A DNA stretch of 46,411 nt from a virus (IMGVR_UViG_3300045988_156631); one strand, 5' to 3'. Shown: positions 1,229-28,175, counted from the first letter of the stretch. The notes: generated from the letters alone by a model not told the origin. Program-made: numbers and translations.

Positions 1229-1639
1229 TCAGTAAGCTTTGCTCTGATGTTCGATGTACCTGCGGATATTTTCTTCCGATACCGATCCGACCGTTTCCAC
1301 ATAATAGGAATGATTCCACAGCTCTCCTTTCCACAGCTGGTTTCTTATTTCCGGAAAACGTTCGAACAGCTTCCTGCCAGTGATCCCCTTCAGATATTTC
1401 ACGATCGCAGTTATGGATAATTTCGGAGGGGCTGATACAAAACAGTGGACATAATCTCCCTCACCACATTCAAACAAATGAACGGTAAATCCCTTATCCT
1501 CCGCAATCTCCTGTACCAGTTTCTGAAGATATGCTTCAATCTCTGCATTTAATATCTTCCGCCGGTATTTTACTGACCATACCATATGGTAATTAATATT
1601 GCACACGCAAGTGCGGTAATGTTTAAGATTTTCTTTCAT
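1229..1639 (-). CDS. tnpA: IS200/IS605 Y1 (HUH) transposase TnpA, full length
   Basis: 136 aa. The N-terminal YHMVWSVKYRRKIL motif, the HUH-like YVHCFV motif, and LKGITGRKLF...LWNHSYYVETVGSVSEENIRRYIEHQ are all typical of IS200-type TnpA. Confidence 0.9.
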   Translation of the reverse strand: MKENLKHYRTCVCNINYHMVWSVKYRRKILNAEIEAYLQKLVQEIAEDKGFTVHLFECGEGDYVHCFVSAPPKLSITAIVKYLKGITGRKLFERFPEIRNQLWKGELWNHSYYVETVGSVSEENIRRYIEHQSKAY

Positions 1640-7429: not shown

Positions 7430-7640
7430 TTTTTATATTATAGACCGGTTATATAAGGTTCATCGGAGTGACATGCTCCCACCACTTAAATCTTACGATT
7501 TTGAAGTGGGGGCTTCCTGCTCGATTGCCTTTTAAGGCAAAGCTAAAACAGGCTATCCCCGCGTGTCCCGCGGTTTTGTTTTTTATCTTCATCCGGTTAC
7601 GGATTTTTTTCTTGTGCCGTCAGGCACATTCTTTATAGAT
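7430..7640 (-). ncRNA. Candidate omega RNA / right-end scaffold of TnpB element B
   Basis: About 190 nt of structured sequence lie directly 3' of the tnpB stop. Hairpins on the minus strand are ccgcgggacacgcgg, ccccacttcaaaatcgtaagatttaagtggtggg and ggagcatgtcactcc. The position matches where TnpB guide RNAs are encoded. The exact ends are unknown. Confidence 0.4.
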
Positions 7641-8717
7641 CCTTTTTCCTTCTTCTCGGATATTGACTGCTGCATTCACATCCCGATCCATCCTGTTTCC
7701 ACATTCACAGACATACATTCTGTCCGACAATGCCAGTTCCTTTTTCTTATGTCCACATACACTGCAGATCTTGCTCGATGCAAAATAACGGTCTACCTTT
7801 ATAAGATGTTTCCCGCGCTCTTCCAGTTTGTATCCCAGCATGGACAGAAACTGCCCATACCCGTTATCCTGCACACCTTTCCCAAGATGCAGCCCTCCGG
7901 ACATTCCCTGCAGATTCAGATCTTCCACGCATACTGCATCATATCTTTCAGCAAGCTCCCTGCTGAGTTTATGCTGGAAATCTTTTCTCTGGTTCTTTAT
8001 CTTTTCATGACATAAAGCTACCCTTTTCTTCTGTTTCTGATAGTTCCGGCTTCCTTTTTCACAGTGGGAAAGCTTTCTCTGTTCCCTTGCAAGTTTTTTC
8101 TCTGCTTTTCTGTAAAACATAGGGTACCTGGCTTTTTCTCCTGTAGAAAATACACACATTCCCTGCATGGCAAAATCGATCCCAAGAAATCTCTCTGCCG
8201 CTCTTTTTTCCACTGTTTGGTTCTCACAGCAGAACAAAAGACTTGCAAAATATTTCCCGGATGACTCACGGCTTATCGTTACCGATTTCAGTTGCCAGTC
8301 TGACGGGATCTGGCGGTGAAGTTTTATTTTTATGGCGGACATCTTTGGAAGCTTCAAATGAGTATCCTGCAAAAGGATATTCCCATTTACTGCATTGGTC
8401 GTATAAGAATTTCTTGAATGTTTTTTTGATTTATAGCGGGGAAATCCGCAGGATGGTTCCCGAAAAAACTTCCGGAACGCACTTTCCAGATGCAGCTGCG
8501 CATTCGCCAGGGCAAGGGAGTCCACCTCCTTCAGCCAGGGATATTCCTTCTTATATCCGGCCGGTGTGTTCCTGAGCATCTTTTTTTCTTTCTGGTAATA
8601 GCTGATCTTGTCCGCAAGCATCTGGTTATAGATAAAGCGGCTGCAGCCGATTGTTTTCTCTATCTGAACGCTCTGCTCTTTATCTGGATAGATCCTTATT
8701 TTTATGGCGCGGTTCAT
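7620..8717 (-). CDS. tnpB: TnpB (IS605 OrfB family RNA-guided nuclease), intact
   Basis: MNRAIKIRIYPDKEQ... start; the track ORF begins 9 nt earlier at a GTG. RuvC D is in FLGIDFAMQG, E in VCVEDLNLQ, and D in MDRDVNAAVNI. The zinc finger is CSVCG...CECG. Confidence 0.92.
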   Translation of the reverse strand: MNRAIKIRIYPDKEQSVQIEKTIGCSRFIYNQMLADKISYYQKEKKMLRNTPAGYKKEYPWLKEVDSLALANAQLHLESAFRKFFREPSCGFPRYKSKKHSRNSYTTNAVNGNILLQDTHLKLPKMSAIKIKLHRQIPSDWQLKSVTISRESSGKYFASLLFCCENQTVEKRAAERFLGIDFAMQGMCVFSTGEKARYPMFYRKAEKKLAREQRKLSHCEKGSRNYQKQKKRVALCHEKIKNQRKDFQHKLSRELAERYDAVCVEDLNLQGMSGGLHLGKGVQDNGYGQFLSMLGYKLEERGKHLIKVDRYFASSKICSVCGHKKKELALSDRMYVCECGNRMDRDVNAAVNIREEGKRIYKECA

Positions 8718-8755
8718 TTTTCTCACCCTGGCTTTCTATATACTGCCATATCGTT

Positions 8756-9058
8756 TCAATCGTCGCCCCGCCTGCACGGAGCAGACAGAAGCTTCAGCAG
8801 TCTGCTGCTGGCACTTTTACAGGCATTGATGAATTTACGGAGTTCTGTCTTTGGCTGTGCGCGGAACATCACATGAACATGGTCTGTATCGTGATTCCAT
8901 TCTTCCAGTACGATCCCGTATCCGGGTGCGATATACTCAAAGATCTCTTTTGCTCTTTCGGATATTTTGCCATTCCGTACTTTTCTTCTGTATTTTATAA
9001 CCATCACTAGGTGATAATATACTAGAAATACTGAATGGGAATTATGATCCAATTCCAT
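8756..9058 (-). pseudogene. tnpA: IS200/IS605 tnpA remnant (internal deletion plus frameshift)
   Basis: MELDHNSHSVFLVYYHLVMVIKYRRKV...HDTDHVHVMF...INACKSASSRLLK then goes out of frame (LLSAPCRRGDD*). The expected C-terminus SFCLLRAGGATIETIWQYIESQGEK is readable in another frame at about 8715..8790. Roughly 17 codons in between are missing. Confidence 0.75.
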
Positions 9059-9189
9059 TGTGTTTATCACTATTTTTCTTATATCGACTGATATGTATTT
9101 GCGAACTAATGTTCCTTTTCAGTATACTATATCAGGGGATAGAGAACAAGTGTTTTTTTGTACTATAAGGACTTTTTTGAGCAGATATG

Positions 9190-9923: not shown

Positions 9924-9992
9924 TCGGAACAGAAGGACTCGAACCCCCGACTCGCTGTATGAAAGTTGCTCTACCAACTGAGCTATGTTCCG
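9924..9992 (-). tRNA. tRNA-like gene 2 (about 69 nt), CAU-type (Met/Ile2-like) loop with a shortened anticodon stem
   Basis: Minus-strand sequence: cggaacatagctcagttggtagagcaactttcatacagcgagtcgggggttcgagtccttctgttccga. It has a perfect 7-bp acceptor stem, a canonical D arm (gctc-agttggta-gagc) and a canonical T arm (ggggg-ttcgagt-ccttc). The region between them is 19 nt rather than the usual ~23. Confidence 0.55.
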
Positions 9993-18945: not shown

Positions 18946-19107
18946 TGGGGAAGTCCCTTTTTCTTTTGTCTCGCAGTTGATTTCGTCGATTACATCAGCT
19001 GTTGAGACAGAGTGTTTTTTCTCATAGAGCTTCAAGTCTTTTCTAATGGCTTGGAGCTCTTTTTGTATAGCCTGCAACTCTCTGACAATCAGGTAAAGTG
19101 CTCTCAT
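18934..19107 (-). CDS. coiled-coil hypothetical protein (57 aa)
   Basis: Own translation: MRALYLIVRELQAIQKELQAIRKDLKLYEKKHSVSTADVIDEINCETKEKGTSPLLL. RBS is gaggtgaggaa. Overlaps the plus-strand 57-aa gene by 12 nt. Confidence 0.55.
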   Translation of the reverse strand: MRALYLIVRELQAIQKELQAIRKDLKLYEKKHSVSTADVIDEINCETKEKGTSPLLL

Positions 19108-19111
19108 TTCC

Positions 19112-19303
19112 TCACCTCTTCTCTTCCAAGAAATACTCGATCGGCACGTTGAAGTAGTCGGCTACTGCCTTCAGCTTATCGGCAGCGGGGATTGCATTTT
19201 TCCATTTAACAATTGAACTTGCAGAAAATCCCAAATCCTTCTCAACACGATAAATAGAAACCTTCTTTTTTTTACAAAGTTCCTTCACCTTTTCGTAAAT
19301 CAA
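19112..19303 (-). CDS. Cro-like XRE HTH repressor (63 aa, TTG start)
   Basis: MIYEKVKELCKKKKVSIYRVEKDLGFSASSIVKWKNAIPAADKLKAVADYFNVPIEYFL. Divergent from the cI-like gene. Confidence 0.8.
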   Translation of the reverse strand: MIYEKVKELCKKKKVSIYRVEKDLGFSASSIVKWKNAIPAADKLKAVADYFNVPIEYFLEEKR

Positions 19304-19550
19304 GTTATCACCTCCATTGCATGATTTTTTTCATAATCATATTGACTTTTTCATGAAAATAATCTATTATATAGGCATAGTGATAGCTGAAAATATTCAT
19401 GTGGCCCGTAGATAAGAATTCTGCAAAATTTTTATCTATAGATTTTTTTCATGTGAATTTTGTTTACACACATATATTACATGATTATTTTCTAGTTGTC
19501 AATAGATTTTACATGATTTTTTTCATGTTATTGAAAGGAGTTTTATACTA
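19304..19550. promoter_or_regulatory. Lysis-lysogeny switch region with repeated CATGA-N6-TCATG operators and two face-to-face promoters
   Basis: Operators: catgatttttttcata at 19320..19335, ttttcatgaaaa at 19347..19358, gatttttttcatg at 19441..19453 and catgatttttttcatg at 19512..19527. Plus-strand promoter: TTGACT-17-TATTAT at 19342..19370. Minus-strand promoter: TTGACA-17-TAATAT at 19502..19474. Confidence 0.6.
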
Positions 19551-19952
19551 TTGACGCTAGTAGATAAAATCAGAGCCTTGGCTCGGCAAAGAGATTTGAG
19601 TTTACCACAGTTAGAGCAAGAATTGGGATTGGGAAATGGTACGATAAGCCGTTGGCGTAATTCATCCCCTAATACTGAAAAATTGCAAAAAATTGCTGAC
19701 TATTTTAATGTTTCTATGGATTACCTCTTAGGCCGAGAACAGTTTTTGACACCTAAAGATGAAAAAGATATTTCCAAGATTCTCGATCAGACCAAACAGC
19801 AACTTCTCTCCCAGGAAGGGTTAATGTTTGACGGGGATCCTGCCAGTCCAGAAGCTATTGAATCTATACTATCTGCCATGCAGATTGGTATGGAACTTGC
19901 CAAGAAAAAGAATAAGGAGAAATACACTCCCAAGAAGTATAAAAAGGACTGA
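19551..19952 (+). CDS. CI-like XRE HTH repressor (133 aa, TTG start)
   Basis: MTLVDKIRALARQRDLSLPQLEQELGLGNGTISRWRNSSPNTEKLQKIADYFNVSMDYLLG. Followed by the ImmA-type protease gene. Confidence 0.85.
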   Translation: MTLVDKIRALARQRDLSLPQLEQELGLGNGTISRWRNSSPNTEKLQKIADYFNVSMDYLLGREQFLTPKDEKDISKILDQTKQQLLSQEGLMFDGDPASPEAIESILSAMQIGMELAKKKNKEKYTPKKYKKD

Positions 19953-20389
19953 TGCCTATGGATATCAGGGCGAAAGTAAATAAGCTGGTACGTTTTTATA
20001 AGACCAGAGATCCATTTGAAATGATAAAAGGAATGAACGTTATTCTTGTCAATTACCCGTTGGAAGGTGTTCGTGGCTTTTACCAGTATTTCCAGAGGAA
20101 CAACCTAATTTATTTAGATGATAGGCTCTCTGAAAATGAACGCCGTTTTGTGCTTGCTCACGAGCTGGGGCATATGTTTCTACATAAAAATGCCAATGCT
20201 ATTTTTATGGACACAAGAACCCAATTCAACACCGCGGGGTATGAATCCGAAGCAAACAAATTTGCTATGGAACTGCTACTGCCGGATGAAATTCTGAATG
20301 ACTATATTGAATCCGGATATACCATCGAGCAGGTGGCGAGAATCACGGGGTATTACAAGAAACTGATTGAACTACGATTGAAAGTATGA
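19952..20389 (+). CDS. immA: ImmA/IrrE-family zinc metalloprotease (anti-repressor protease)
   Basis: HEXXH motif in FVLAHELGHMFLH, plus ESEANKFAMELLLP. Forms a classic pair with the upstream XRE repressor. Confidence 0.85.
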   Translation: MPMDIRAKVNKLVRFYKTRDPFEMIKGMNVILVNYPLEGVRGFYQYFQRNNLIYLDDRLSENERRFVLAHELGHMFLHKNANAIFMDTRTQFNTAGYESEANKFAMELLLPDEILNDYIESGYTIEQVARITGYYKKLIELRLKV

Positions 20390-20428
20390 TCGATATGTAT
20401 TTTACGTTTAAGAAAGAAGGAAACAAAA

Positions 20429-20878
20429 ATGGCTTTAATCAAATGCCCTGAGTGCGGAAAAATGTACTCCGACACTGCGGCATCTTGTCCGAACTGCGGA
20501 TATAGAAAAAGAATGGATTTTTCACAGATGGCAATGTTGATAACTGGGGCAATGTCTATTGTCTTAGCTGTATTGTGTCTCAATCAATCTATCACCGTTT
20601 TCAGGCTGTCCAATATTGCAGGTACGAAAGATTACGGTGGAATGGCTGGGATTTTAATGGCGGTATTCTTTATTTTTTCCGGCATTTTGGCTATTTGCTT
20701 ACGGAAAATAGACTCTGAATGGCCGCCAGCAGTGTGTATGGGTATATGCCTATTTGCTTCGTACATCGGAGCTGTTTTAGAAACCAACTACAAAGATGTG
20801 TATTTTTGGGCAACACTCGTTTTTCTTTGTTCATTTATATACTTAGGAATTGCAATACATATTAAACGCCGACAATAA
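20429..20878 (+). CDS. Zinc-ribbon + 4-TM membrane protein, paralog 1
   Basis: MALIKCPECGKMYSDTAASCPNCGY followed by four hydrophobic helices. Confidence 0.75.
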   Translation: MALIKCPECGKMYSDTAASCPNCGYRKRMDFSQMAMLITGAMSIVLAVLCLNQSITVFRLSNIAGTKDYGGMAGILMAVFFIFSGILAICLRKIDSEWPPAVCMGICLFASYIGAVLETNYKDVYFWATLVFLCSFIYLGIAIHIKRRQ

Positions 20879-20883
20879 CAGAA

Positions 20884-20975
20884 AACGCCCCCTGTCACAA
20901 ACAGAGAGCGTTCCTGTGAATCATATATGCACCACCGGAGGCAATGCAATAATCACCCCTCGCAAAGAAGAACTC
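20884..20975 (-). ncRNA. Conserved intergenic module, copy A (divergent): terminator hairpin plus GAGG..CCTC core
   Basis: The hairpin aacgccccctgt-cacaa-acagagagcgtt at 20884..20912 pairs perfectly with G:U only on the minus strand. The core at 20918..20975 aligns with copies B and C, but the TATAAT box is not conserved. Confidence 0.25.
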
Positions 20976-21067
20976 TGTCGAGAAATATAAGAAGTAGGTG
21001 ATCTTATTGAATTACGATTGAAAGTATGATCGTTATGATTTTACGTTTAAAAAAGAAGGAAACAGAA

Positions 21068-21526
21068 ATGGCTTTAATCAAATGCCCTGAATGCGGAAAA
21101 GAATATTCCGATAAAGCAAAAGCGTGTCCAAATTGCGGATACCAACCCAAAAAGAGCTCCGCTCCAATTGCCATGACTATAACAGGAGTTATGTCTATAG
21201 TTATAGCTATCTTATGCCTCAATCAATCCACCTTAGTTTCAAGATTATCTGCCATTGCTCAATCATCTGATTTAGGCGGGATAGCCGGAATTATTATGGC
21301 CGTTCTTCTTATTTTTACCGGAGTCTTGGCAATTTGTATCCGTGAAATCGATAGTGAATGGGGTCCACTTATATGTATGGCGATCTGTTTAGGTGCGGCC
21401 TATATAGGAGCTGCATTAAATACTGCCTATAAGGATATTCTTGCATGGTCTCTATTTATTATGATTTTTTCATTTATATATCTTGGAATTGGAATTTTTA
21501 TCAAAACAAATAAAGTTAAACATTGA
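21068..21526 (+). CDS. Zinc-ribbon + 4-TM membrane protein, paralog 2
   Basis: MALIKCPECGKEYSDKAKACPNCGY... The start at 21068 has the same RBS context as paralog 1. The track ORF starts at 21026 inside a duplicated immA 3' end. Confidence 0.75.
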   Translation: MALIKCPECGKEYSDKAKACPNCGYQPKKSSAPIAMTITGVMSIVIAILCLNQSTLVSRLSAIAQSSDLGGIAGIIMAVLLIFTGVLAICIREIDSEWGPLICMAICLGAAYIGAALNTAYKDILAWSLFIMIFSFIYLGIGIFIKTNKVKH

Positions 21527-21541
21527 TGGAAAGGATGAAAT

Positions 21542-23341
21542 ATGATTAAAAACATATTTAAATTTTTCTCAATACTGATAAAAATTGCAATTTTATTTAT
21601 AGTATTTTTAATGCTGCTTGGTGGGTGGACCACTAACGACTTTTCCGCCTTTATTCCTTTTATAATTATACTGGTGATCATATATTTTATATATTGTATC
21701 ATCGAAAAAGCGGTAAATAGGATAATACTTCGGATAAGAGGATTTAAAGAATCCTCCCCACATAATGATCTGGATGAACTCGACCAAATAGACTCGGCTG
21801 ATGATGTGGTCGATGAACCAGAAAAAAATTTGTCATTAAAGACTGGAGAGGAAAACACCATTGCCGAAGAAGAACCTGAAGTTCCGCAGCAAATACCCCA
21901 AAAGGCTGTTTTGACTTCACCCGTCGCTGAAAAAGAATTGCCCGAGCCCCAAATAAATATTGACGAGACTTCATTGGATCCAACAACATACCCTATAAGC
22001 CCTATAGTTCAAGAAACATCAACCATACCCAAAATTGATATAAAGCCTAAAATACCTAAGCATATTTCTATTGTGGATGCAGATTCTCTTCTTGTTAAAG
22101 CAGGATGTTTGATTGTCAAAGATAACAAAGCGTCTATTGGTTCAATACAACGCAAATTCAAAATAGGGTTCAACCGGGCCGCACATATCATGGATCAGCT
22201 TGCAGAAATTGGATTGGTTGGTCCGGAAAATGACACGAGGCCTCGTACTATTTTAATGACAGAAGAGGAGTTTTTTGAACAGTTAGACCATATAGACTAT
22301 ATCGAAAGTGAAAATATTCCTCCTGCACAATCAATCATTGATGAAATTATTAAGAATGAATCTCCTGATCCTCTAATGTCCAAAATAGAGGTAGAGTACA
22401 TAATAAATGACAAAACCGATTACTCAAAAAATGGTGAGTCACTATTTAATTTACAAAATTCAATAATTCCTTGTGTCACTGATAGTGATAAAACTGCCGT
22501 TATAAATACCTTAATCAAGTTCAATTCATGTGATAAACTCAAACTTATAATGATTGATCGAACAGGAGTTGATTTTTTACAATATCATCTCCTTCCACAT
22601 CTGTTTATCCCTATTGTAACTGATGACACAAAAATCCAAAATGTGGTAGATTGGGCTTATGCTGAAATGCAAGGACGCATAGAAAAATTTTTGCCTTTAT
22701 ATGCAAGAGATATTTTCTCTTACAATACCAAAGTTGCAACAAATTCTCGTTTACCTATTGTGACAATTATTGTAAGCGAAATATTTGGACTGAACACAGA
22801 ATCCTTTTCGCATTTCACAGAATTACTTCTAAATTCAATGAGAATGGGGATTTGTTTTATTGTTTTTTCAAAAATGGAATATAAATCTTTGTCTCTCGGC
22901 GTGAATCAAAAACTTTTTGAAACGAAAAGTGTCTCTCAATTTTTGGATATTTTAATGGACGTTCATTCGCCAGATAAGAAATATTCTAATTTTGATGATA
23001 TGGACGGCGTCGAATTTGAACGGTATTGCGCTGATTTATTACGCAAAAATAATTTTCATAATGTGGAAATCACTAAAGACAGCGGAGATCAAGGGATTGA
23101 TATACTCGCTCAAAAAGATGGCATACAATACGGAATCCAGTGTAAATGTTACTCATCTGATATTGGAAACAAAGCTGTTCAAGAAGCGTTTGCTGGAAAA
23201 ACTTATTATGGATGCCATGTAGCCGTTGTTTTGACTAATCGCCATTTTACAAAAAGTGCTAAAGAATTGGCCACTACAAATAAAGTGATTTTGTGGGACA
23301 GAGAAAAACTAGAAAATCTAATTGCTTCTGCCAAAACATGA
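21542..23341 (+). CDS. Membrane-anchored fusion protein: 2 TM helices, acidic/Pro linker, FtsK-gamma winged helix, degenerate FtsK/SpoIIIE-like ATPase core, and a C-terminal Mrr_cat (PD-(D/E)xK) nuclease domain
   Basis: Gamma-like segment: KASIGSIQRKFKIGFNRAAHIMDQLAEIGLVGPENDTRPRTIL. FtsK-core-like segment: VTDSDKTAVINTLIKFNSCDKLKLIMIDRTGVDFLQYHLLPHLFIPIVTD...RLPIVTIIVSEIFGL, where the P-loop is degenerate (DSDKT) and Walker B is SE instead of DE. C-terminus: FERYCADLLRKNNFHNVEITKDSGDQGIDILAQKDGIQYGIQCKCY. Confidence 0.7.
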   Translation: MIKNIFKFFSILIKIAILFIVFLMLLGGWTTNDFSAFIPFIIILVIIYFIYCIIEKAVNRIILRIRGFKESSPHNDLDELDQIDSADDVVDEPEKNLSLKTGEENTIAEEEPEVPQQIPQKAVLTSPVAEKELPEPQINIDETSLDPTTYPISPIVQETSTIPKIDIKPKIPKHISIVDADSLLVKAGCLIVKDNKASIGSIQRKFKIGFNRAAHIMDQLAEIGLVGPENDTRPRTILMTEEEFFEQLDHIDYIESENIPPAQSIIDEIIKNESPDPLMSKIEVEYIINDKTDYSKNGESLFNLQNSIIPCVTDSDKTAVINTLIKFNSCDKLKLIMIDRTGVDFLQYHLLPHLFIPIVTDDTKIQNVVDWAYAEMQGRIEKFLPLYARDIFSYNTKVATNSRLPIVTIIVSEIFGLNTESFSHFTELLLNSMRMGICFIVFSKMEYKSLSLGVNQKLFETKSVSQFLDILMDVHSPDKKYSNFDDMDGVEFERYCADLLRKNNFHNVEITKDSGDQGIDILAQKDGIQYGIQCKCYSSDIGNKAVQEAFAGKTYYGCHVAVVLTNRHFTKSAKELATTNKVILWDREKLENLIASAKT

Positions 23342-23343
23342 CA

Positions 23344-23438
23344 TTAAAAAGGCCCCTGCTGCAAACAGAGACCTCTTTGAAAACTATACAGCCTTGGAGG
23401 ATCAGGCATAATTTTCCCTCGACAAGAAGATTATAGCA
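23344..23438 (-). ncRNA. Conserved intergenic module, copy B: candidate ~80-nt minus-strand sRNA (extended -10 promoter to terminator)
   Basis: On the minus strand, TGcTATAAT is at 23438..23430, followed by cttcttgtcgagggaaaattatgcctgatcctccaaggctgtatagttttc and a hairpin plus T-run ending near 23344. Confidence 0.4.
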
Positions 23439-23484
23439 TGATTCTGGAGAAAATGAAATATCAGGAACACAGGAAGGAGAACAT

Positions 23485-24048
23485 ATGAGTTTTGTTATTG
23501 GATTTGCCACACCTGATTTTGCCATTATTGCCAGTGACGGACGCAGCACTTATCAAGATGGTAGTGTTGCATCAGAGTATTACAATAAAACAAAACAAAT
23601 AAATAAGAATGTGATTGTTGGATTCGCTGGCGAAACAGCTTTGTGTGAAAGCGTACTTTCTTCTTTTGAAGAATCATTTCTTTGGACGGTAGAGACAGCA
23701 TCTTCTCAAGTAAAACAGCGACTTAATTTACTCAATTTGCAAGCTCCAAGGAAATGTTCTTTTATAATTGCCGGAATAAATTCCAATGGAGAAATCGAAT
23801 TAGATGCCACAGGAATTTCAAGTGGTCTGCAAATTACCAGGCAAAAACCCACGGCTCAAGATTTTGTCTATGCCACTTTATCACCAGACAACATCAATGG
23901 AGACCAAATTTTTGTAAAGAATTTCACTTCAAAATCTTGGGAATCAATAGAAGAACCTTTTACATCTTCTATTTTCGAGGTTGCAAAACTTGATTCTTCT
24001 GTGAATACGAATTGCTTTTTTCAAAAGATTTCTCTGCAAAAATACTGA
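23485..24048 (+). CDS. Proteasome-beta/HslV-like Ntn-hydrolase fold protein (187 aa), orphan
   Basis: MSFVIGFATPDFAIIASDGRSTYQDGSV...KNVIVGFAGETALCESVLSSFE...CSFIIAGINSNGEIEL resembles the N-terminal nucleophile beta-sandwich pattern of proteasome beta subunits, with Ser2 in place of Thr1. Confidence 0.5.
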   Translation: MSFVIGFATPDFAIIASDGRSTYQDGSVASEYYNKTKQINKNVIVGFAGETALCESVLSSFEESFLWTVETASSQVKQRLNLLNLQAPRKCSFIIAGINSNGEIELDATGISSGLQITRQKPTAQDFVYATLSPDNINGDQIFVKNFTSKSWESIEEPFTSSIFEVAKLDSSVNTNCFFQKISLQKY

Positions 24049-24130
24049 CTTTGCTGGCTGAAACTGTTCCATAAGAAATTTTCCCGTCACCCAAAAAGGT
24101 TTTGGACTGTTTATATGATGTTTTTTTCAT
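23969..24130 (-). CDS. 53-aa ORF or antisense transcript, convergent with and overlapping the 3' end of the Ntn-hydrolase gene
   Basis: Own translation: MKKTSYKQSKTFLGDGKISYGTVSASKVSIFAEKSFEKSNSYSQKNQVLQPRK. Strong RBS acaggaggaact. Minus-strand promoter TTGAAA-17-TATTAT at 24187..24159. Confidence 0.35.
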   Translation of the reverse strand: MKKTSYKQSKTFLGDGKISYGTVSASKVSIFAEKSFEKSNSYSQKNQVLQPRK

Positions 24131-24142
24131 AGTTCCTCCTGT

Positions 24143-24163
24143 GTTATAAGCTATGCTTATAAT
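24143..24163. promoter_or_regulatory. Palindromic operator-like site gttataagc-tat-gcttataat, overlapping -10 boxes on both strands
   Basis: Inverted repeat with 8 of 9 matches. Plus-strand TATAAT is at 24158..24163 and minus-strand TATTAT at 24164..24159. Confidence 0.45.
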
Positions 24164-24234
24164 AACATTATTTCATATAATTTTCAATGATGCAGTCTGG
24201 GGATATGAAACTATTTATGAAAGGAGCTGATCTT

Positions 24235-24780
24235 ATGCCACTACCCAACGAACGTACCTACACCATCGAAGATATCTACGCTCTTCCGGAAGGAGAACGT
24301 GCGGAGCTGATCGACGGCCAACTTTACATGATGTCACCGCCAAATTATAAGCATCAGAAACTGGTATCCAAATTTACCCGGATTATCGGGAACTATATTG
24401 ATTCAAATGGTGGCCCCTGTGAGGTCCTTCCAGCCCCGCTGGCTGTTCGTTTAAATGCCGACGATAAAACTTATGTTGAACCAGATATCTCTGTCATCTG
24501 CGACCCGAACAAGATCACTGAAAAGGGAGTAGACGGGGCTCCAGACTTCATTATCGAGATCGTATCTCCCGGAACTCAAAGAAGAGATTATGGCATCAAG
24601 CTTTTCAAATACCGCACTGCCGGTGTCCGGGAATACTGGATTGTCAACCCGGCGAAAGAAATTGTGAATGCATACTGTTTTGAGAACGAAGAAAACTCCA
24701 ATCTTTATTCCTTCACGGATGATATTCCCGTTGGAATTTATCCCGGCTTCACCATCAATATTGCAGAATTACTGAAATAA
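24235..24780 (+). CDS. Uma2-family (DUF820) PD-(D/E)xK endonuclease
   Basis: MPLPNERTYTIEDIYALPEGERAELIDGQLYMMSPPNYKHQKLV...EPDISVICD...APDFIIEIVSPGTQRRDYGIKLFKYRTAGVREYWIVNP. RBS aaaggag lies 8 nt upstream. The track ORF starts at 24187. Confidence 0.8.
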   Translation: MPLPNERTYTIEDIYALPEGERAELIDGQLYMMSPPNYKHQKLVSKFTRIIGNYIDSNGGPCEVLPAPLAVRLNADDKTYVEPDISVICDPNKITEKGVDGAPDFIIEIVSPGTQRRDYGIKLFKYRTAGVREYWIVNPAKEIVNAYCFENEENSNLYSFTDDIPVGIYPGFTINIAELLK

Positions 24781-24781
24781 A

Positions 24782-24884
24782 AAGAAAAACCGCCCCGGTG
24801 TTACCAGCACCAGAACGGCTTTCACGAAAAACTATACAAATCCAGAGGATTGCATAATTTTCCCTCAGCAAGAAGATTATACCA
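24782..24884 (-). ncRNA. Conserved intergenic module, copy C: candidate ~88-nt minus-strand sRNA
   Basis: On the minus strand, TGTACA + 18 nt + TGgTATAAT (24884..24876) is followed by cttcttgctgagggaaaattatgcaatcctctggatttgtatagttttt. Then comes the hairpin ccgttctggtg-ctggtaa-caccggggcgg plus tttttcttttt. Confidence 0.4.
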
Positions 24885-24943
24885 CAATCCTTTGAATTTT
24901 GTACAGGTGTTATTTTTGTACCCATTTTTCAAAGGAGGATTGT

Positions 24944-25033
24944 ATGAAACCACTTATAAAGCATAAAATCAATCTCCCCTCTCATACGCTGGAACAGATT
25001 CAGCTTATGAAAGGGGGTGGTCTTAATGGATAA
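24944..25033 (+). CDS. 29-aa leader ORF overlapping the integrase start
   Basis: Own translation: MKPLIKHKINLPSHTLEQIQLMKGGGLNG. Strong RBS aaaggagg. Its stop at 25031..25033 overlaps the ATG at 25026. Confidence 0.35.
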   Translation: MKPLIKHKINLPSHTLEQIQLMKGGGLNG

Positions 25034-25069
25034 TACAATGCGTTATGGCGCATTATATATCCGTGTCAG

Positions 25070-26470
25070 GTGAGCACTGACAAACAGGAGGAACTCTCCC
25101 CGGATGCCCAGAAGCGTCTCCTACTGGACTACGCCAACTCCCACAATATTTTCATTTCGCCGGATCTGATCTTCACGGAGAACGGTATTTCCGGCCGGAA
25201 GGCAGATAAACGTCCGGAGTTTCAACGGATGATCGGCATGGCCAAAACGGATGAGCCACCTTTCTCTGTGATCCTGGTCTGGAAGTTCAGCCGTTTTGCC
25301 AGAAATCAGGAGGAATCCATCGTGTACAAATCCATGCTGAAAAAACAGCACGGCGTTGATGTGGTCAGCATCACGGAGCCACTGATCGATGGGCCATTTG
25401 GAACCTTGATCGAGCGTATCATTGAGTGGATGGATGAGTATTACTCCATCAATCTTTCCACGGAAGTAATCCGCGGTATGACAGAAAAAGCCCTGCGTGG
25501 CGGCTATCAGTGTACGCCGCCGCTGGGATATGAGTCTTCCCGTCCCGGGGAAGCCTTTACCGTAGTTCCGGAGGAAGCGGAGATCGTCAAATATATTTTC
25601 GACCAGTATGTTCGCTGCCACCGGGATGCCACGGCCATTGCCCGGAGTCTGAACCGGCGGAAGCTGCACACCAAAAGAGGAAATGTTTTTGAGAAAAGGA
25701 ATATCACCTACATCCTTCAGAATCCCTTCTACGCAGGAAAGATCATCTGGAACGATATTGAGCGGGATGGGATCCATGAGACCTTCATTTCTCCTGAGCT
25801 TTTCCAGGAAGCCAACATCCAGCTTCAGGCTGCCTATCAACCAAAAAAGCGCCGGAATGTTTCTACCTGTGCTCACTGGCTCTCTGGACTGGTGAAATGT
25901 TCTGCCTGTGGAGCCTCTCTTGGCTTTAACAATGCCAGGGATCCGTTTTTTCAATGCTGGAAATATGCCAAAGGCATGCATCCTGGAAGTTCCTGGATCA
26001 CACAAAGGGCTCTGGAAAATGCCGTGTTGGAATATTTTGAGCAGCTCTTAGCCGGGCAAGAATTTTCTTTTACATACCGCTCTTCCACTGCCGTGGTCGA
26101 GGAAGATCCGACGCTTATCTATAAAAAAGAGCTGGAGAAGCTGAACAGCCGTGAAATCCGGATCCGTGAGGCTTATGAAAATGAAATTGATACACTGGAA
26201 GAATACAAAGCCCGGAAGCAACAGCTCCAGGCAGAAAGAGAACGACTGAACGATCTTATCCTTTCGGTAAAAAGAACGCCGAAAAATGATGAGACAAAAG
26301 ACCGGCTGGAACTGATGAAAAAGATCCAGACCGTATATGATGTGATAAAAAGTCCTGATATTGATTATGAGGTAAAAGGGACCTTCATCCGCTCTGTTGT
26401 GGAGGAAATCGTATGGAACCGAGCAGAAAACACGCTGTCCTTTCACCTCTACATGCCCGGAAACCCTTGA
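25070..26470 (+). CDS. int: Large serine recombinase (integrase). The 5' end is disrupted: the native start (25026 or 25038) is out of frame by a 5-nt insertion at 25068..25072.
   Basis: (V)STDKQEELSPDAQKRLLLDYA...ISGRKADKRPEFQRMI...VILVWKFSRFARN resolvase domain, a recombinase domain, a zinc ribbon CSACGASLGF..., and a coiled coil. Upstream, MDNTMRYGALYIRVR* supplies the missing beta-1 strand in another frame. Confidence 0.85.
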   Translation: MSTDKQEELSPDAQKRLLLDYANSHNIFISPDLIFTENGISGRKADKRPEFQRMIGMAKTDEPPFSVILVWKFSRFARNQEESIVYKSMLKKQHGVDVVSITEPLIDGPFGTLIERIIEWMDEYYSINLSTEVIRGMTEKALRGGYQCTPPLGYESSRPGEAFTVVPEEAEIVKYIFDQYVRCHRDATAIARSLNRRKLHTKRGNVFEKRNITYILQNPFYAGKIIWNDIERDGIHETFISPELFQEANIQLQAAYQPKKRRNVSTCAHWLSGLVKCSACGASLGFNNARDPFFQCWKYAKGMHPGSSWITQRALENAVLEYFEQLLAGQEFSFTYRSSTAVVEEDPTLIYKKELEKLNSREIRIREAYENEIDTLEEYKARKQQLQAERERLNDLILSVKRTPKNDETKDRLELMKKIQTVYDVIKSPDIDYEVKGTFIRSVVEEIVWNRAENTLSFHLYMPGNP

Positions 26471-26491
26471 TTTTACTGGGGATTCCGGCTT

Positions 26492-26535
26492 TCATAGGTT
26501 ACTGCACTCCGGTGGACCGGATAGCAGTAACCTAT
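26492..26535. other. 44-bp near-perfect palindrome next to int: candidate attP core (alternatively a long stem-loop)
   Basis: cataggttactgc (26492..26504) and gcagtaacctatg (26523..26535) are perfect inverted repeats. The centre holds the inner pair tccgg/ccgga around tgga. Confidence 0.4.
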
Positions 26536-26607
26536 GGTACATAAAAATCCTGTTTTTCCTTATATTTTCGCCGTTTCTGGCATTTTTTAAATTTGGATTG
26601 TGGTAGC

Positions 26608-26628
26608 ACCCCGGAGCTTTTCCGGGGT
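26608..26628. terminator. Bidirectional terminator between int (+) and endolysin (-)
   Basis: The hairpin accccgga-gcttt-tccggggt is followed by tcttcttgttt. Confidence 0.65.
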
Positions 26629-26668
26629 TCTTCTTGTTTAGATGTCACTTGTACAAAACTATCATTTT

Positions 26669-27676
26669 TTATACCTTTAAGACCCTGTTTCTACACTTGT
26701 ACTGCGCCAGAATCCAGCCACGGGTAAGCTTCATGTATACTCCCCTGCCGCTGATCTGTTCTTCTCCCAAACACTTGTCTACCGTGCCCTTCCGGATCAG
26801 TGCTTCGCCGGAGCCGCCACGTTTAAAGTAGCGCCGCTTCGCCGTGGGGATGGTATCATACTGAACAAGTGGAGCGGAGGCTTTCGGTTCCGTCCGCAGG
26901 GCAAGGTCTGTCTGCATGCGGTAGCGGATGCCTTTCTGGAAGACCGGTGCGCTGTAGATCAGCTGACCGTTGACGTCGTAGATGTGGTATCCGGGCCGGC
27001 AGGCTTTCTTTGCATTGTCGATGTATGTGTAGCTTCCAATCTGGGTGTCTGCTCTACCCCATGCCTTCCGGACGTAATACGGACCGCCCTCGGAGTTCAT
27101 CGCCGCTTTCACGGCTTTCCGGAAGCCGTCCATCGTTAAATTGAATCGGCTCCATACGTGATCAGGATCCACATGAGCGGAGGACAAGCCCGCCAGGCGT
27201 CCCTCGTTGTGTGAGGAAATCAGGTACATTCCGTTGCCAAGCTTCTCCAGCGGGTCCCAGCCACGTTCATTACAGATCTTCGCACAGAGCATGATTGCTG
27301 TATTATAACCACGCATAATGTCAGCTTTAAACAATTCTTCATTTGTGACATCGTATGAAGCACCGTTAGTATAATGAATATAGTCCGACTCACAGATTTC
27401 AATAGTTATAAGATTATTATTACCCCAACCCGCATCCGCCCAGGAACGCATCTCTTCCGGAAGGAGCTGTAGCCCATTGCCGGAAACATCTGCATCACAG
27501 ACATAGTGGACGCAGGCCGACACCGAAGGCTGATTCCAGTAGTCAGCAACGCTCTGTGCTGTTCCCTGCCCGGTACCGATCGTGTGGATCTGGATACCGA
27601 CCTTCTCACAGATGGCCCCTGTCTGATAGCAACGATTGTTCGTGAGGTAATTCTTTTTGATGCTTAATGTGCTCAT
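26669..27676 (-). CDS. Endolysin: N-acetylmuramoyl-L-alanine amidase (Amidase_2/PGRP-like) with C-terminal SH3-like wall-binding repeats
   Basis: The likely start MSTLSIKKNY follows aaaggacgg. Contains ...IQIHTIGTG...NNLITIEICES...SSHNEGRLAGLSSAHVDPDHVW. Adjacent to the holin. Confidence 0.85.
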   Translation of the reverse strand: MSTLSIKKNYLTNNRCYQTGAICEKVGIQIHTIGTGQGTAQSVADYWNQPSVSACVHYVCDADVSGNGLQLLPEEMRSWADAGWGNNNLITIEICESDYIHYTNGASYDVTNEELFKADIMRGYNTAIMLCAKICNERGWDPLEKLGNGMYLISSHNEGRLAGLSSAHVDPDHVWSRFNLTMDGFRKAVKAAMNSEGGPYYVRKAWGRADTQIGSYTYIDNAKKACRPGYHIYDVNGQLIYSAPVFQKGIRYRMQTDLALRTEPKASAPLVQYDTIPTAKRRYFKRGGSGEALIRKGTVDKCLGEEQISGRGVYMKLTRGWILAQYKCRNRVLKV

Positions 27677-27719: not shown

Positions 27720-28175
27720 TTACTCGCCCTCTGTATCATCTTTGTTTACTACTTTTTCTGCAACTTCAAGACCTTCCGTTAAGATCTTCGGCACCTTATA
27801 GCCAGCTTCAACGAAATTCTCACAGATGGACCGGATCTCATTTACCAGGAGTGATGCCAGGACAAACCATCCAATCAGCACGGTCACGCCCAGATCCACG
27901 TTGATTGTCTTTCCGATTTCGGTAAACACAGCACTGGCGCCAAAGGCCACGGCGATCATAAGCCAGTATCCCAGTTTTTTCAGCACGCCTTTCCAGCCAG
28001 CTTCTGAATTCTCTTTATGTGCCATGCGGCTCTTCATCCACCCTGTCAACCAGTCAGCAACGTTAAAGGCCAGGAACAGTGCGAACAGCATCCAGTGCTC
28101 GCCAAAGATGTAGGTCAGAATTGCTACGATTCCGCCCACGACGGCATTATATGTATCAATTACTTTCATTTGCAT
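27720..28175 (-). CDS. Holin (Phage_holin_4 / TcdE-like family)
   Basis: 151 aa with 3-4 TM helices. Contains NVADWLTGWMKS...GWKGVLKKLGYWLMI...LLVNEIRSICENF. Confidence 0.85.
   Translation of the reverse strand: MQMKVIDTYNAVVGGIVAILTYIFGEHWMLFALFLAFNVADWLTGWMKSRMAHKENSEAGWKGVLKKLGYWLMIAVAFGASAVFTEIGKTINVDLGVTVLIGWFVLASLLVNEIRSICENFVEAGYKVPKILTEGLEVAEKVVNKDDTEGE

What the first reader, a model, noticed from the sequence alone, without database searches (positions are those of the whole stretch)
20884..24884. A conserved ~60-110-nt intergenic module after three moron cassettes reads as a minus-strand promoter, small RNA and terminator
A related element follows each of three genes: the first Zn-ribbon gene (20884..20975), the Mrr-fusion gene (23344..23438) and the Uma2 gene (24782..24884). 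Copies B and C are about 85% identical over ~60 nt, although their flanking genes are unrelated. Read on the minus strand, B and C each show:
- a perfect extended -10 box (TGcTATAAT, TGgTATAAT);
- a conserved transcript start, cttcttg(t/c)(c/t)gagggaaaattatgc...cctc(c/t);
- a hairpin that is fully paired (via G:U) only on the minus strand, followed by a T-run.

The predicted RNAs (~80-90 nt) carry a CCUCC/CCUCU anti-Shine-Dalgarno-like motif. They end back-to-back with the 3' ends of two predicted nuclease genes. That layout resembles the 3'-overlapping antitoxin RNAs of prophage type I TA loci. Alternatively they are portable cassette-boundary sequences: direct repeats flanking the Ntn-hydrolase/Uma2 block that could mediate its loss or exchange.
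Basis: seen in the sequence. Interest (0 to 1): 0.75.

Follow-up and report, generated by a model that had tools for sequence, protein, structure and literature searches.

The report
Integrase-side small RNA genes in gut phages
The three repeats are copies of a previously uncatalogued small structured RNA gene, with its own promoter and terminator, that temperate phages of gut Lachnospiraceae keep between their accessory (defence-type) genes and the integrase gene; its function is untested, and it probably keeps those transcription units apart.

Summary
Three related minus-strand units lie at 20882-20970 (A), 23346-23438 (B) and 24782-24905 (C).

- **Anatomy.** B and C have a perfect extended -10 box, a long hairpin and a one-way terminator. 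A keeps both hairpins but has lost the canonical -10.
- **Structure.** The RNA fold is real. In 38 distinct relatives 93% of cells pair (36-51% in slid controls), and 17 of 19 pairs show compensatory changes. Sense folds better than antisense in 34 of 34.
- **Known families.** No Rfam 15 family matches.
- **Position.** The unit has a fixed place in a large group of Lachnospiraceae phages: repressor, ImmA, 1-4 variable cargo genes, then the RNA gene on the opposite strand, then an integrase of any type. A cultured Dorea phage carries it too.
- **Type I toxin-antitoxin reading: not supported.** Most loci have one RNA whatever the cargo, the same RNA variant abuts unrelated genes, and no small hydrophobic toxin ORF is present.
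- **Cassette-boundary reading: partly supported.** The units are 95-165-nt islands of homology, and one relative carries a chimeric RNA.
- **Best mechanism (inferred).** A convergent antisense unit or insulator that acts on read-through from the lysogeny and cargo operon into the integrase or the next cassette.

It is a new RNA family of a familiar kind, of moderate interest.

The parts
24782..24869 (-). Small RNA copy C (primary copy, next to the integrase). Predicted start is G at 24869 and the end lies in the U-run; about 88 nt.
   Evidence: CM R1 73.3 bits; fold z = -5.8; sequence read
24876..24905 (-). Promoter of C: -35-like TGTACA (24905-24900), 18-nt spacer, TG (24884-24883), -10 TATAAT (24881-24876).
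   Evidence: 10 of 12 matches, TG present. The same promoter is present in all primary copies.
24826..24863 (-). Hairpin 1 of C: basal stem GAAAAUUAUGC/GUAUAGUUUUU, with CCUCU in the apical part.
   Evidence: covariation
24785..24823 (-). Intrinsic terminator of C. It contains G:U pairs, so it is weak on the plus strand. It abuts the Uma2 stop codon (24778-24780).
23346..23423 (-). Small RNA copy B (secondary copy). Predicted start is G at 23423; about 78 nt. Hairpin 1 is 23379-23416; terminator and U-run are 23346-23378.
   Evidence: CM R1 66.1 bits; fold z = -3.7
23430..23438 (-). Extended -10 box of B (TGCTATAAT). Homology to primary copies stops here: no -35 element or integrase leader follows.
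20882..20970 (-). Copy A: a diverged copy with both hairpins kept (hairpin 1 at 20919-20954, terminator at 20878-20917) and no -10 box at the canonical place. TATATT lies 13 nt further upstream.
   Evidence: CM R1 30.3 bits, R2 43.8 bits; fold z = -4.0
24886..24943 (+). Conserved integrase-side leader. The homology island runs to about 24939. ACAATCCTTTGAA (24884-24896) can pair with the Shine-Dalgarno region TTCAAAGGAGGATTGT (24929-24943).
   Evidence: The pairing was read from sequence and is an inference.
24944..25033 (+). 29-codon leader ORF whose stop overlaps the integrase start region.
25070..26470 (+). Large serine recombinase (integrase). Its N-terminal codons lie upstream in another frame because of a 5-nt insertion at about 25066-25070.
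   Evidence: Pfam Resolvase, Recombinase and Zn_ribbon_recom; PHROG integrase 4.9e-103
24235..24780 (+). Uma2-family nuclease gene, convergent with C (cargo).
   Evidence: Pfam Uma2 2.9e-34; PADLOC PDC-S03 2.7e-48
23485..24048 (+). Ntn/proteasome-like hydrolase gene (cargo).
   Evidence: Pfam Proteasome 1.5e-8
21542..23341 (+). FtsK-gamma/FtsK/Mrr fusion gene, convergent with B (cargo).
   Evidence: Pfam; PADLOC Mrr-domain hits
20429..20878 (+). Zn-ribbon membrane protein gene 1, convergent with A. Together with A it forms a ~650-nt unit that is absent from L035 and L036.
21068..21526 (+). Zn-ribbon membrane protein gene 2.
19551..20389 (+). CI/ImmR-like HTH repressor (19551-19952) and ImmA/IrrE metallopeptidase (19952-20389): the start of the plus-strand lysogeny operon.
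   Evidence: Pfam HTH_3 and Peptidase_M78

Best explanation
**What it is.** A, B and C are copies of a small non-coding RNA gene of about 80-90 nt. Each has an extended -10 promoter, a short 5' leader, one long AU-rich hairpin and a strong one-way intrinsic terminator.

**Where it sits.** The gene belongs to a family with a fixed place in temperate phages of Lachnospiraceae. It lies on the opposite strand at the junction between the ImmR-ImmA-cargo operon and the integrase gene. It is convergent with the last cargo gene and divergent from the integrase.

**Shown.**
- The RNA structure is under selection on the minus strand.
- The promoter is conserved.
- The position is conserved, whatever the type of integrase or cargo.
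- The cargo gene ends a few bases from the RNA's 3' end and has no terminator of its own.

**Inferred.**
- Plus-strand transcripts of the lysogeny and cargo operon run into the RNA gene.
- The unit acts in cis as a convergent antisense unit or insulator. RNA polymerase collisions from its strong promoter, and pairing of the RNA with read-through transcripts, would uncouple the integrase (or the next cassette) from upstream expression.
- C is the working junction copy. B and A mark older junctions that were kept when further [cargo + RNA] blocks were added on the integrase side.
- The conserved RNA gene also serves as a homology anchor for exchanging cassettes between phages.
For: **Structure.**
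- 15 close relatives: 95.4% of cells paired versus about 47% in slid controls; 8 pairs with double changes; covariation 0.51 versus 0.23 (0 of 500 shuffles).
- 38 distinct relatives: 93.2% paired; 17 of 19 pairs with double changes.

**Strand.**
- Sense MFE beats antisense in 34 of 34 (-33.8 versus -18.9 kcal/mol).
- An extended -10 box is present in 31 of 34.

**Terminator and neighbour.**
- Terminator energy is -18.0 (sense) versus -9.8 kcal/mol (antisense).
- The 8-nt tail holds 6.3 T (sense) versus 2.0 (antisense).
- A convergent ORF stops within 200 nt in 31 of 33 cases, with a median gap of about 7 nt.

**Synteny.**
- 45 of 45 model hits in 42 of 80 ImmA-linked loci lie on the strand opposite ImmA and downstream of it.
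- ORF maps always read HTH, ImmA, 1-4 cargo genes, RNA (-), integrase.
- Loci without a model hit carry a differently built mini-unit (TGATACAAT promoter, CUUCGG hairpin, terminator) at the same junction. This argues that position and orientation matter more than RNA sequence.

**Older copies and recombination.**
- Model scores fall with distance from the integrase: window 73.3, 66.1, 30.3; L002 73.8, 44.9, 35.5.
- Homology islands and the chimeric RNA of L037 point to recombination at the RNA gene.
Against: - No transcript data exist for either strand. Read-through of the cargo genes is inferred only from the lack of a plus-strand terminator.
- If the unit acted only by collision, the hairpin would not need to be conserved, yet it covaries strongly. 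The RNA itself therefore probably has a role that I cannot name.
- A small plus-strand hairpin with a U-run between the RNA promoter and the integrase start could already stop read-through in some relatives. The window's copy C has lost half of it.
- The conserved inverted repeat between the -10 box with its discriminator and the 5' arm of the hairpin is not explained by this model.
- B and A are not next to an integrase, so a purely integrase-directed role does not account for them.
Confidence: 0.45

Rival explanations
1. A trans-acting regulatory small RNA. Its C/U-rich apical loop, or its conserved 5' leader GYYGAGGGA, pairs with ribosome-binding sites (the integrase or its leader ORF, other phage genes, or host genes) and represses translation, as C-rich-loop small RNAs do in Firmicutes.
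For: - CCUC sits in or next to the apical loop in most close-family variants.
- Copy C can form 13 contiguous pairs, 3 of them G:U, with GGAGGAUUGUAUG, which spans the Shine-Dalgarno sequence to the AUG of the adjacent leader ORF. L050 can form 10 perfect pairs with its integrase leader.
- Hairpin covariation shows that the RNA itself is under selection.
Against: - In a 14 x 14 matrix, cognate RNA/integrase-RBS duplexes average -14.1 kcal/mol and non-cognate ones -14.0.
- The loop motif is lost in L007/L009, L032 and L050, and in the wider subfamilies.
- No single-stranded seed is shared among subfamilies that occupy the same site.
- A whole-window duplex scan gave no convincing target.
Confidence: 0.2
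2. A promoter-competition device for the integrase. The RNA's strong promoter and a mirror-image -10 box on the plus strand, inside the 5' arm of the hairpin, form back-to-back overlapping promoters. Firing of the RNA promoter occludes the rightward promoter of the integrase (or, for B and A, of the next cassette). The short terminated RNA is mainly a by-product that must be stopped before it runs antisense into the cargo genes.
For: - A 12-nt inverted repeat joins [-10 + discriminator] to the hairpin's 5' arm in almost all members, and the arms co-vary between subfamilies.
- The plus strand reads CATAAT, TACAAT, TATAAT, AATAAT or TGATATAAT at that place (sequences, read by eye).
- The scan tool lists a plus-strand promoter-like site inside B, at 23385-23412.
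- No other recognisable integrase promoter fits in the ~70 nt before the integrase start.
Against: - The mirror box is not a -10 in L107 (TGTACT).
- Spacing to the -35-like TATACA varies from 14 to 20 nt.
- A by-product RNA would not need a covarying hairpin rich in G:U pairs.
- There is no experimental support.
Confidence: 0.15
3. Mainly a recombination anchor or cassette-boundary repeat. The conserved ~100-nt sequence persists because it mediates homologous exchange, gain and loss of cargo cassettes between related phages, and the RNA has no function of its own.
For: - The units are islands of 80-88% identity, 93-165 nt long, in otherwise unrelated flanks.
- L037 carries a chimeric RNA.
- L035 and L036 lack the [Zn-ribbon-1 + A] unit.
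- Arrays of 2-3 copies occur in the window, L002, L027/L036 and L122/L128/L129.
Against: - A pure DNA homology anchor would not show compensatory changes that keep a hairpin with G:U pairs on one strand only.
- It would not need a conserved extended -10 box.
- Subfamilies with unrelated sequence sit at the same site.
- Recombination at the site is better seen as a consequence of its conservation.
Confidence: 0.08
4. One reading: 3'-overlapping antitoxin RNAs of type I toxin-antitoxin pairs that neutralise the upstream nuclease genes.
For: - The RNA is convergent and tightly packed against nuclease-type genes: the gap to the stop codon is 3-5 nt in the window.
- Uma2 and the Mrr fusion match defence-candidate models.
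Against: - Most related phages have one RNA whatever the number of cargo genes.
- The convergent partner may be Uma2, a TIR-like protein, a Zn-ribbon protein, an Abi-like protein, an exported protein or others.
- The same B-type 3' half lies next to unrelated genes.
- Overlap is limited to the terminator.
- No small hydrophobic ORF lies opposite the RNAs.
Confidence: 0.05

Closest known systems
Phage lambda OOP RNA and phage P22 sar RNA (small phage antisense RNAs with their own promoter and terminator; from my own knowledge)
   Same: A short (~70-90 nt) stable hairpin RNA from a constitutive promoter, transcribed against a regulatory operon of a temperate phage and ending at an intrinsic terminator next to a convergent gene.
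   Different: - OOP and sar overlap the coding or intercistronic sequence of a specific target (cII; ant/arc).
- Here the overlap with the convergent gene is only the terminator.
- The partner gene is variable.
- The fixed neighbour is the integrase.
- There is no sequence similarity, and no Rfam match at E <= 10.
Type I toxin-antitoxin loci with 3'-overlapping or terminator-sharing antitoxin RNAs (txpA/RatA, bsrG/SR4, and par RNA I/RNA II of pAD1; from my own knowledge)
   Same: Convergent transcription with a shared terminator region, a small structured RNA, and frequent location in prophages.
   Different: No small hydrophobic toxin ORF is present. The partners are 140-600-aa enzymes of many kinds. 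There is one RNA per junction rather than one per toxic gene.
The immR-immA-int operon of ICEBs1 and related Firmicutes elements, and insulator terminators at element ends (Tn916; abstract of PMC11658703 as listed)
   Same: The same gene order of repressor, ImmA protease and integrase on one strand, and the same need to keep read-through from reaching genes whose untimely expression is harmful.
   Different: Here cargo genes are inserted between immA and int. The separating element is not a plain terminator but an opposing promoter-RNA-terminator unit whose terminator works only on the opposite strand.
Integron cassette arrays (attC sites next to intI)
   Same: A repeated, imperfectly conserved hairpin-forming element follows each of several unrelated cargo genes next to a recombinase gene. 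Copies further from the recombinase are more diverged.
   Different: - The units carry a promoter and a terminator.
- Cargo genes are transcribed towards the integrase, not away from it.
- The adjacent recombinases are of unrelated families, serine and several tyrosine types.
- I did not search for the R/L core sites of attC.

Membership tests
Any Rfam 15 RNA family | Score at or above the family's gathering threshold | tested here: not met
   The window at gathering threshold yields only a tRNA-like hit at 9924-9992. For 20700-25100 at E <= 10, the best hit over the units is the rnk leader at 22.6 bits against a threshold of 55. Five related loci show nothing at the site.
Type I toxin-antitoxin antitoxin RNA | A small (<60 aa) hydrophobic toxin ORF on the opposite strand, overlapped by the RNA | tested here: not met
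   The plus-strand ORFs over A and B are hydrophilic, start with TTG or GTG, and are not shared. None lies over C. The neighbours encode 149-599-aa proteins.
Type I toxin-antitoxin antitoxin RNA | A specific and constant pairing of RNA with its toxin gene across genomes | tested here: not met
   The convergent partner varies, and there is one RNA per locus with 1-4 cargo genes. The B-type 3' half lies next to unrelated genes.
Independently transcribed bacterial small RNA gene | Own promoter upstream | tested here: met
   An extended -10 box TGnTAnAnT is present in 31 of 34 distinct members, with -35-like hexamers. This is sequence evidence only. Copy A lacks the box.
Independently transcribed bacterial small RNA gene | Intrinsic terminator on the same strand | tested here: met
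   sense -18.0 kcal/mol with 6.3 T in the tail, antisense -9.8 kcal/mol with 2.0 T.
Independently transcribed bacterial small RNA gene | Conserved secondary structure with compensatory changes | tested here: met
   The alignments were anchored on, or fitted to, the structure, which leans towards it. The basal stem is also visible in the plain MAFFT alignment A2.
Independently transcribed bacterial small RNA gene | A detectable transcript of the predicted size | not testable with these tools
Cis-antisense RNA or convergent-transcription insulator | An opposite-strand transcript actually crosses the RNA gene | not testable with these tools
   Indirect evidence only: there is no plus-strand terminator, and the cargo stop codon lies 0-20 nt from the RNA's 3' end in most loci.
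Integron attC site | Association with an IntI-type tyrosine recombinase, and cassettes read away from it | tested here: not met
   The adjacent recombinases are large serine recombinases or assorted tyrosine integrases, and the cargo is read towards them.
Anti-Shine-Dalgarno regulatory RNA of the adjacent integrase | Co-variation of the RNA loop with the cognate ribosome-binding site | tested here: not met
   Cognate duplexes average -14.1 kcal/mol and non-cognate ones -14.0. Two suggestive exceptions exist: window C and L050.

The most novel reading that the evidence does not exclude
The unit is a portable junction module of a phage cargo (defence-gene) hotspot. It would be a self-terminating antisense transcription unit that both insulates each cassette and provides the conserved sequence at which [cargo + RNA] blocks are stacked next to the integrase and swapped between phages with unrelated integrases. 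That would make it an integron-like cassette system organised by a small RNA gene instead of attC sites. The dyad that links the promoter to the hairpin arm may act as a switch between leftward RNA synthesis and rightward integrase or cassette expression.
Probability: 0.15. Interest if true: 0.75.

Novelty: new variant of a known kind. Interest (0 to 1): 0.5.

Why it matters
Temperate phages of Lachnospiraceae are among the commonest mobile elements of the human gut. How they regulate lysogeny is almost unstudied. This work adds four things.

- **A new conserved non-coding element.** It is absent from Rfam and from the annotation of a cultured Dorea phage. It marks the boundary of the phage's accessory and defence-gene hotspot.
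- **A practical landmark.** The covariance model locates the cargo/integrase junction and therefore the cargo genes.
- **A testable hypothesis.** It proposes how integrase expression is uncoupled from a constitutively expressed lysogeny and cargo operon.
- **A possible route for cassette exchange** between phages.

If the RNA turns out to act in trans, it would be one of the first regulatory RNAs known from gut Clostridia phages.

Tried and rejected
1. **Rfam.** Searches at gathering threshold and at E <= 10 found nothing.
2. **ARAGORN.** No tRNA or tmRNA, so the unit is not an attachment-site gene fragment. The integrase-RNA-cargo order is also intact in prophage-state contigs (L004, L006).
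3. **A small peptide in the RNA.** B would give 21 aa and C 7 aa, with no conservation; other members have no AUG (sequence reading). Rejected.
4. **RNAalifold on a plain MAFFT alignment.** It found only a trivial 4-bp helix because the loops were misaligned. I replaced it with a structure-anchored, N-padded alignment and with model-made alignments.
5. **Whole-window duplex scans for trans targets.** The first run timed out. The second gave only the self-complement and no credible target.
6. **Co-variation of the RNA with the integrase ribosome-binding site.** Negative.
7. **Megablast of 19000-27000 against cultured phages.** No match. A distant search found one phage, Dorea phage DO134P1.
8. 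**Literature searches** for an integrase-side small RNA in such phages, and for DO134P1. Nothing relevant.
9. **The plus-strand mirror -10 box as integrase promoter.** Kept only as a rival, because spacing varies and L107 lacks it.
10. **Pattern-scan false positives.** These were a host epimerase-like gene start, several chance hits, and a CRISPR spacer.

Full report
**1. The observation**

The window is a temperate phage genome. Its plus-strand lysogeny arm reads, in order (Pfam; PHROGs and PADLOC):

| Coordinates | Gene |
|---|---|
| 19551-19952 | CI/ImmR-like HTH repressor |
| 19952-20389 | ImmA/IrrE metallopeptidase |
| 20429-20878 | Zn-ribbon membrane protein 1 |
| 21068-21526 | Zn-ribbon membrane protein 2 |
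| 21542-23341 | FtsK-Mrr fusion |
| 23485-24048 | Ntn/proteasome-like hydrolase |
| 24235-24780 | Uma2 nuclease |
| 24944-25033 | 29-codon leader ORF |
| 25070-26470 | large serine recombinase |

Lysis and tail genes follow on the minus strand.

- A 24-nt core is shared by B and C, against 0.00 matches expected by chance.
- An ungapped 40-nt block is 85% identical. Over the full ~100 nt, identity is 68.5%.
- On the minus strand, B and C carry TGcTATAAT and TGgTATAAT. C also has a -35-like TGTACA at 18 nt.
- All three fold far better on the minus strand (z = -4.0, -3.7, -5.8) than on the plus strand (-1.2, +0.6, -1.8).
- A covariance model built without copy A finds C, B and A as the three best hits in the window (73.3, 66.1 and 30.3 bits; next best 14).
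- Copy A has lost the canonical -10 box.

**2. Relatives and structure**

Pattern scans of viral, genome and metagenome collections gave about 16 distinct close variants. All come from human-gut Lachnospiraceae material: a Blautia isolate, Marvinbryantia and Lachnospiraceae MAGs, and IMG/VR contigs.

Every variant folds into the same shape: a short leader, one long hairpin and a terminator.

| Measure | 15 close relatives | 38 distinct relatives incl. diverged subfamilies |
|---|---|---|
| Cells paired | 95.4% | 93.2% |
| Slid controls | about 47% | 36-51% |
| Pairs with changes on both sides | 8 | 17 of 19 |
| Covariation score vs shuffles | 0.51 vs 0.23 (0 of 500) | 0.61 vs 0.21 (0 of 500) |

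These alignments were anchored on, or fitted to, the structure, which favours it. However, the basal stem and its A-U to U-A swap are also visible in the plain MAFFT alignment.

Many pairs are G:U, so the fold exists on one strand only. Sense MFE beats antisense in 34 of 34 members, at -33.8 versus -18.9 kcal/mol. An extended -10 box is present in 31 of 34. No Rfam 15 family matches.

**3. Context**

In every close relative the RNA gene is divergent from an integrase gene. That integrase may be one of two kinds of large serine recombinase or one of several unrelated tyrosine integrases. The convergent gene on the other side is variable: Uma2, TIR-like, Zn-ribbon, Abi-like, exported proteins.

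I fetched 80 loci through the ImmA protein and searched them with the models.
- R1 gave 26 hits and R2 gave 45 hits, in 42 loci.
- Every hit lies on the strand opposite ImmA and downstream of it.
- ORF maps always read HTH, ImmA, 1-4 cargo genes, RNA (-), integrase.
- Loci without a model hit carry a differently built mini-unit at the same junction: a TGATACAAT promoter, a short CUUCGG hairpin and a GC-rich terminator.

A cultured phage, Dorea phage DO134P1, has the RNA gene (60.1 bits) between a cargo CDS and a serine recombinase CDS. The gene is not annotated there.

The RNA's terminator is one-way: -18.0 versus -9.8 kcal/mol, with 6.3 versus 2.0 T in the tail. The convergent gene's stop codon lies a median of about 7 nt from the RNA's 3' end. 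The cargo gene therefore has no terminator of its own.

**4. The extra copies**

Most phages have one copy. The window has three, L002 has three, and L027/L036 and L122/L128/L129 have two. Scores fall with distance from the integrase: 73.3, 66.1, 30.3 in the window and 73.8, 44.9, 35.5 in L002.

BLAST of the window against the loci shows three things.
- B (23345-23438) and C with its promoter and integrase leader (about 24774-24939) are short islands of 80-88% identity in phages with unrelated flanks.
- L035 and L036 lack the unit [Zn-ribbon-1 + A].
- B's homology stops at its -10 box.

L037 carries a chimeric RNA: an L001-type 5' half joined to a B-type 3' half. The RNA gene is thus a recurrent recombination point, and B and A look like earlier junction copies.

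**5. Mechanism**

*Shown.* The element is a structured RNA gene with a conserved promoter and a one-way terminator. It is fixed at the cargo/integrase junction and opposed to the lysogeny operon.

*Inferred.* Plus-strand transcripts run into it. The unit insulates the integrase or the next cassette by convergent transcription and by antisense pairing.

*What points to a position-dependent, cis role.*
- Subfamilies of unrelated sequence occupy the same site.
- No seed sequence is shared among them.
- Each junction in an array has its own copy.

*What remains unexplained.*
- The hairpin covaries strongly, which suggests a role for the RNA itself.
- A 12-nt inverted repeat links the -10 box and discriminator to the hairpin's 5' arm in nearly all members, and its arms co-vary. 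This suggests either a mirror-image rightward promoter or a structure in a longer transcript.

*Integrase leader in close relatives.* It holds an anti-SD-like AAUCCUCC, then a small hairpin with a U-run (CACCUGUACAGGUG, varying to CAUCUGUACAGAUG and GGCUUGCAUAGCC), then the Shine-Dalgarno sequence. The integrase is therefore under further RNA-level control.

**6.

- **Type I toxin-antitoxin: rejected.** There is no small hydrophobic ORF, the partners vary, and there is one RNA per locus.
- **Anti-SD action on the integrase: not supported in general.** Cognate and non-cognate duplexes are equal. Window C (13 pairs across the SD and AUG of the leader ORF) and L050 (10 perfect pairs) are suggestive exceptions.
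- **Cassette boundary: partly supported**, as a consequence of the unit's conservation.

**7. Verdict**

The finding is real and extends well beyond the window. It is a new RNA family of a familiar general kind (a phage small antisense RNA or insulator) with an unusual, strictly conserved position. Its function is not established.

- Interest: 0.5
- Novelty: new variant of a known kind

Noticed in passing
window 25055-25080; L002 integrase start: The serine integrase has a 5-nt insertion exactly at the catalytic serine codon: CGTGTCAG-GTGAG-CACTGAC. Codons MRYGALYIRV are therefore in one frame and S-T-D-K-Q onwards in another, with a stop (AGG TGA) between them. L002, whose integrase is only about 71% identical, has the same feature (GTAAG, AGG TAA). 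Seven related loci are intact. It could be a shared inactivation, a recombination scar, a slippage switch or a recoding site.
   Followed up: partly
window about 24870-24886 with 24852-24863; same place in all relatives: A 12-nt inverted repeat joins the RNA promoter's -10 box and discriminator to the 5' arm of hairpin 1 (GGTATAATCTTC-n9-GAAGATTATRCC). It is conserved, with co-varying arms, across subfamilies, and the spacer is 9-15 nt. It is lost in copy A. Unexplained.
   Followed up: partly
L029 2243-2340: A gut metagenome CRISPR array (at least 15 repeats of GTTTTAATAGAAACATTGTGGAATGTAAAT) holds a spacer, GGAATCATGGTATAATCTTCTTGTCGAGGGAAAATC, that matches the promoter and 5' end of a B-type copy of this RNA gene.
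   Followed up: partly
window 23969-24187 (minus strand): A 53-codon minus-strand ORF (23969-24130) has a strong ribosome-binding site and a promoter-like site (TTGAAA-17-TATTAT with TG, 24187-24159). It overlaps the 3' end of the Ntn-hydrolase gene by 80 nt. It has no Pfam, PHROG or PADLOC hit.
   Followed up: no
L004 1883-1908; int-sense strand of L005, L009, L020, L050 and others: Between the RNA promoter and the integrase start lies a small plus-strand hairpin with a U-run (GCACCTGTACAGGTGT ATTTTTATAC). Its arms co-vary (CATCTGTACAGATG, GGCTTGCATAGCC). It is preceded by AATCCTCC, which can pair with the integrase Shine-Dalgarno sequence; in L034 both sides change together (ACCTCC / GGAGGT). 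It looks like an attenuator or translational lock on the integrase. The window's copy has lost half of the palindrome.
   Followed up: partly
L057, L059-L064, L066 (about 1-2.7 kb downstream of ImmA): A third, shorter kind of minus-strand mini-unit occupies the same cargo/integrase junction: a TGATACAAT promoter, a hairpin with a CUUCGG loop and a GC-rich terminator. Models R1 and R2 do not detect it.
   Followed up: partly
L136 (Dorea phage DO134P1, OP172779.1, record 27734-27816): A cultured, fully sequenced phage carries the RNA gene (R2 60.1 bits) in an unannotated gap between two 'hypothetical protein' CDSs. The downstream CDS begins MQYEEYLIYLRKSR, which looks like a serine recombinase. 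It is a ready experimental system.
   Followed up: yes
window 20363-21141: The unit [Zn-ribbon gene 1 + copy A], about 650 nt, is bracketed by direct repeats of 84-88% identity (20363-20502 and 21003-21141). These cover the 5' UTR and the first ~100 nt of the two Zn-ribbon genes. L035 and L036 have only the second gene.
   Followed up: partly
window 23511-23867: L027 and L036, otherwise 91-99.8% identical to the window here, lack 357 nt (119 codons) inside the Ntn-hydrolase gene. L006 has the full gene.
   Followed up: no
window 9924-9992 (minus strand): Rfam calls a tRNA (46 bits, E = 9e-7), but ARAGORN reports none.
   Followed up: no
window 1229-1639, 7620-8726, 8756-9070 (minus strand): The ORFs begin like IS200/IS605 TnpA (…YHMVWSVKYRRKIL…) and TnpB (MNRAIKIRIYPDKEQ…), suggesting insertion sequences inside the phage genome. 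L001 has a similar pair near its RNA gene. This is judged from the translations only and was not tested against profiles.
   Followed up: no
L070 14181-14524: A tmRNA gene (138 bits) lies directly after the integrase of this related prophage. That fits integration into ssrA, and it shows that the integrase-RNA-cargo order is kept in the integrated state.
   Followed up: no
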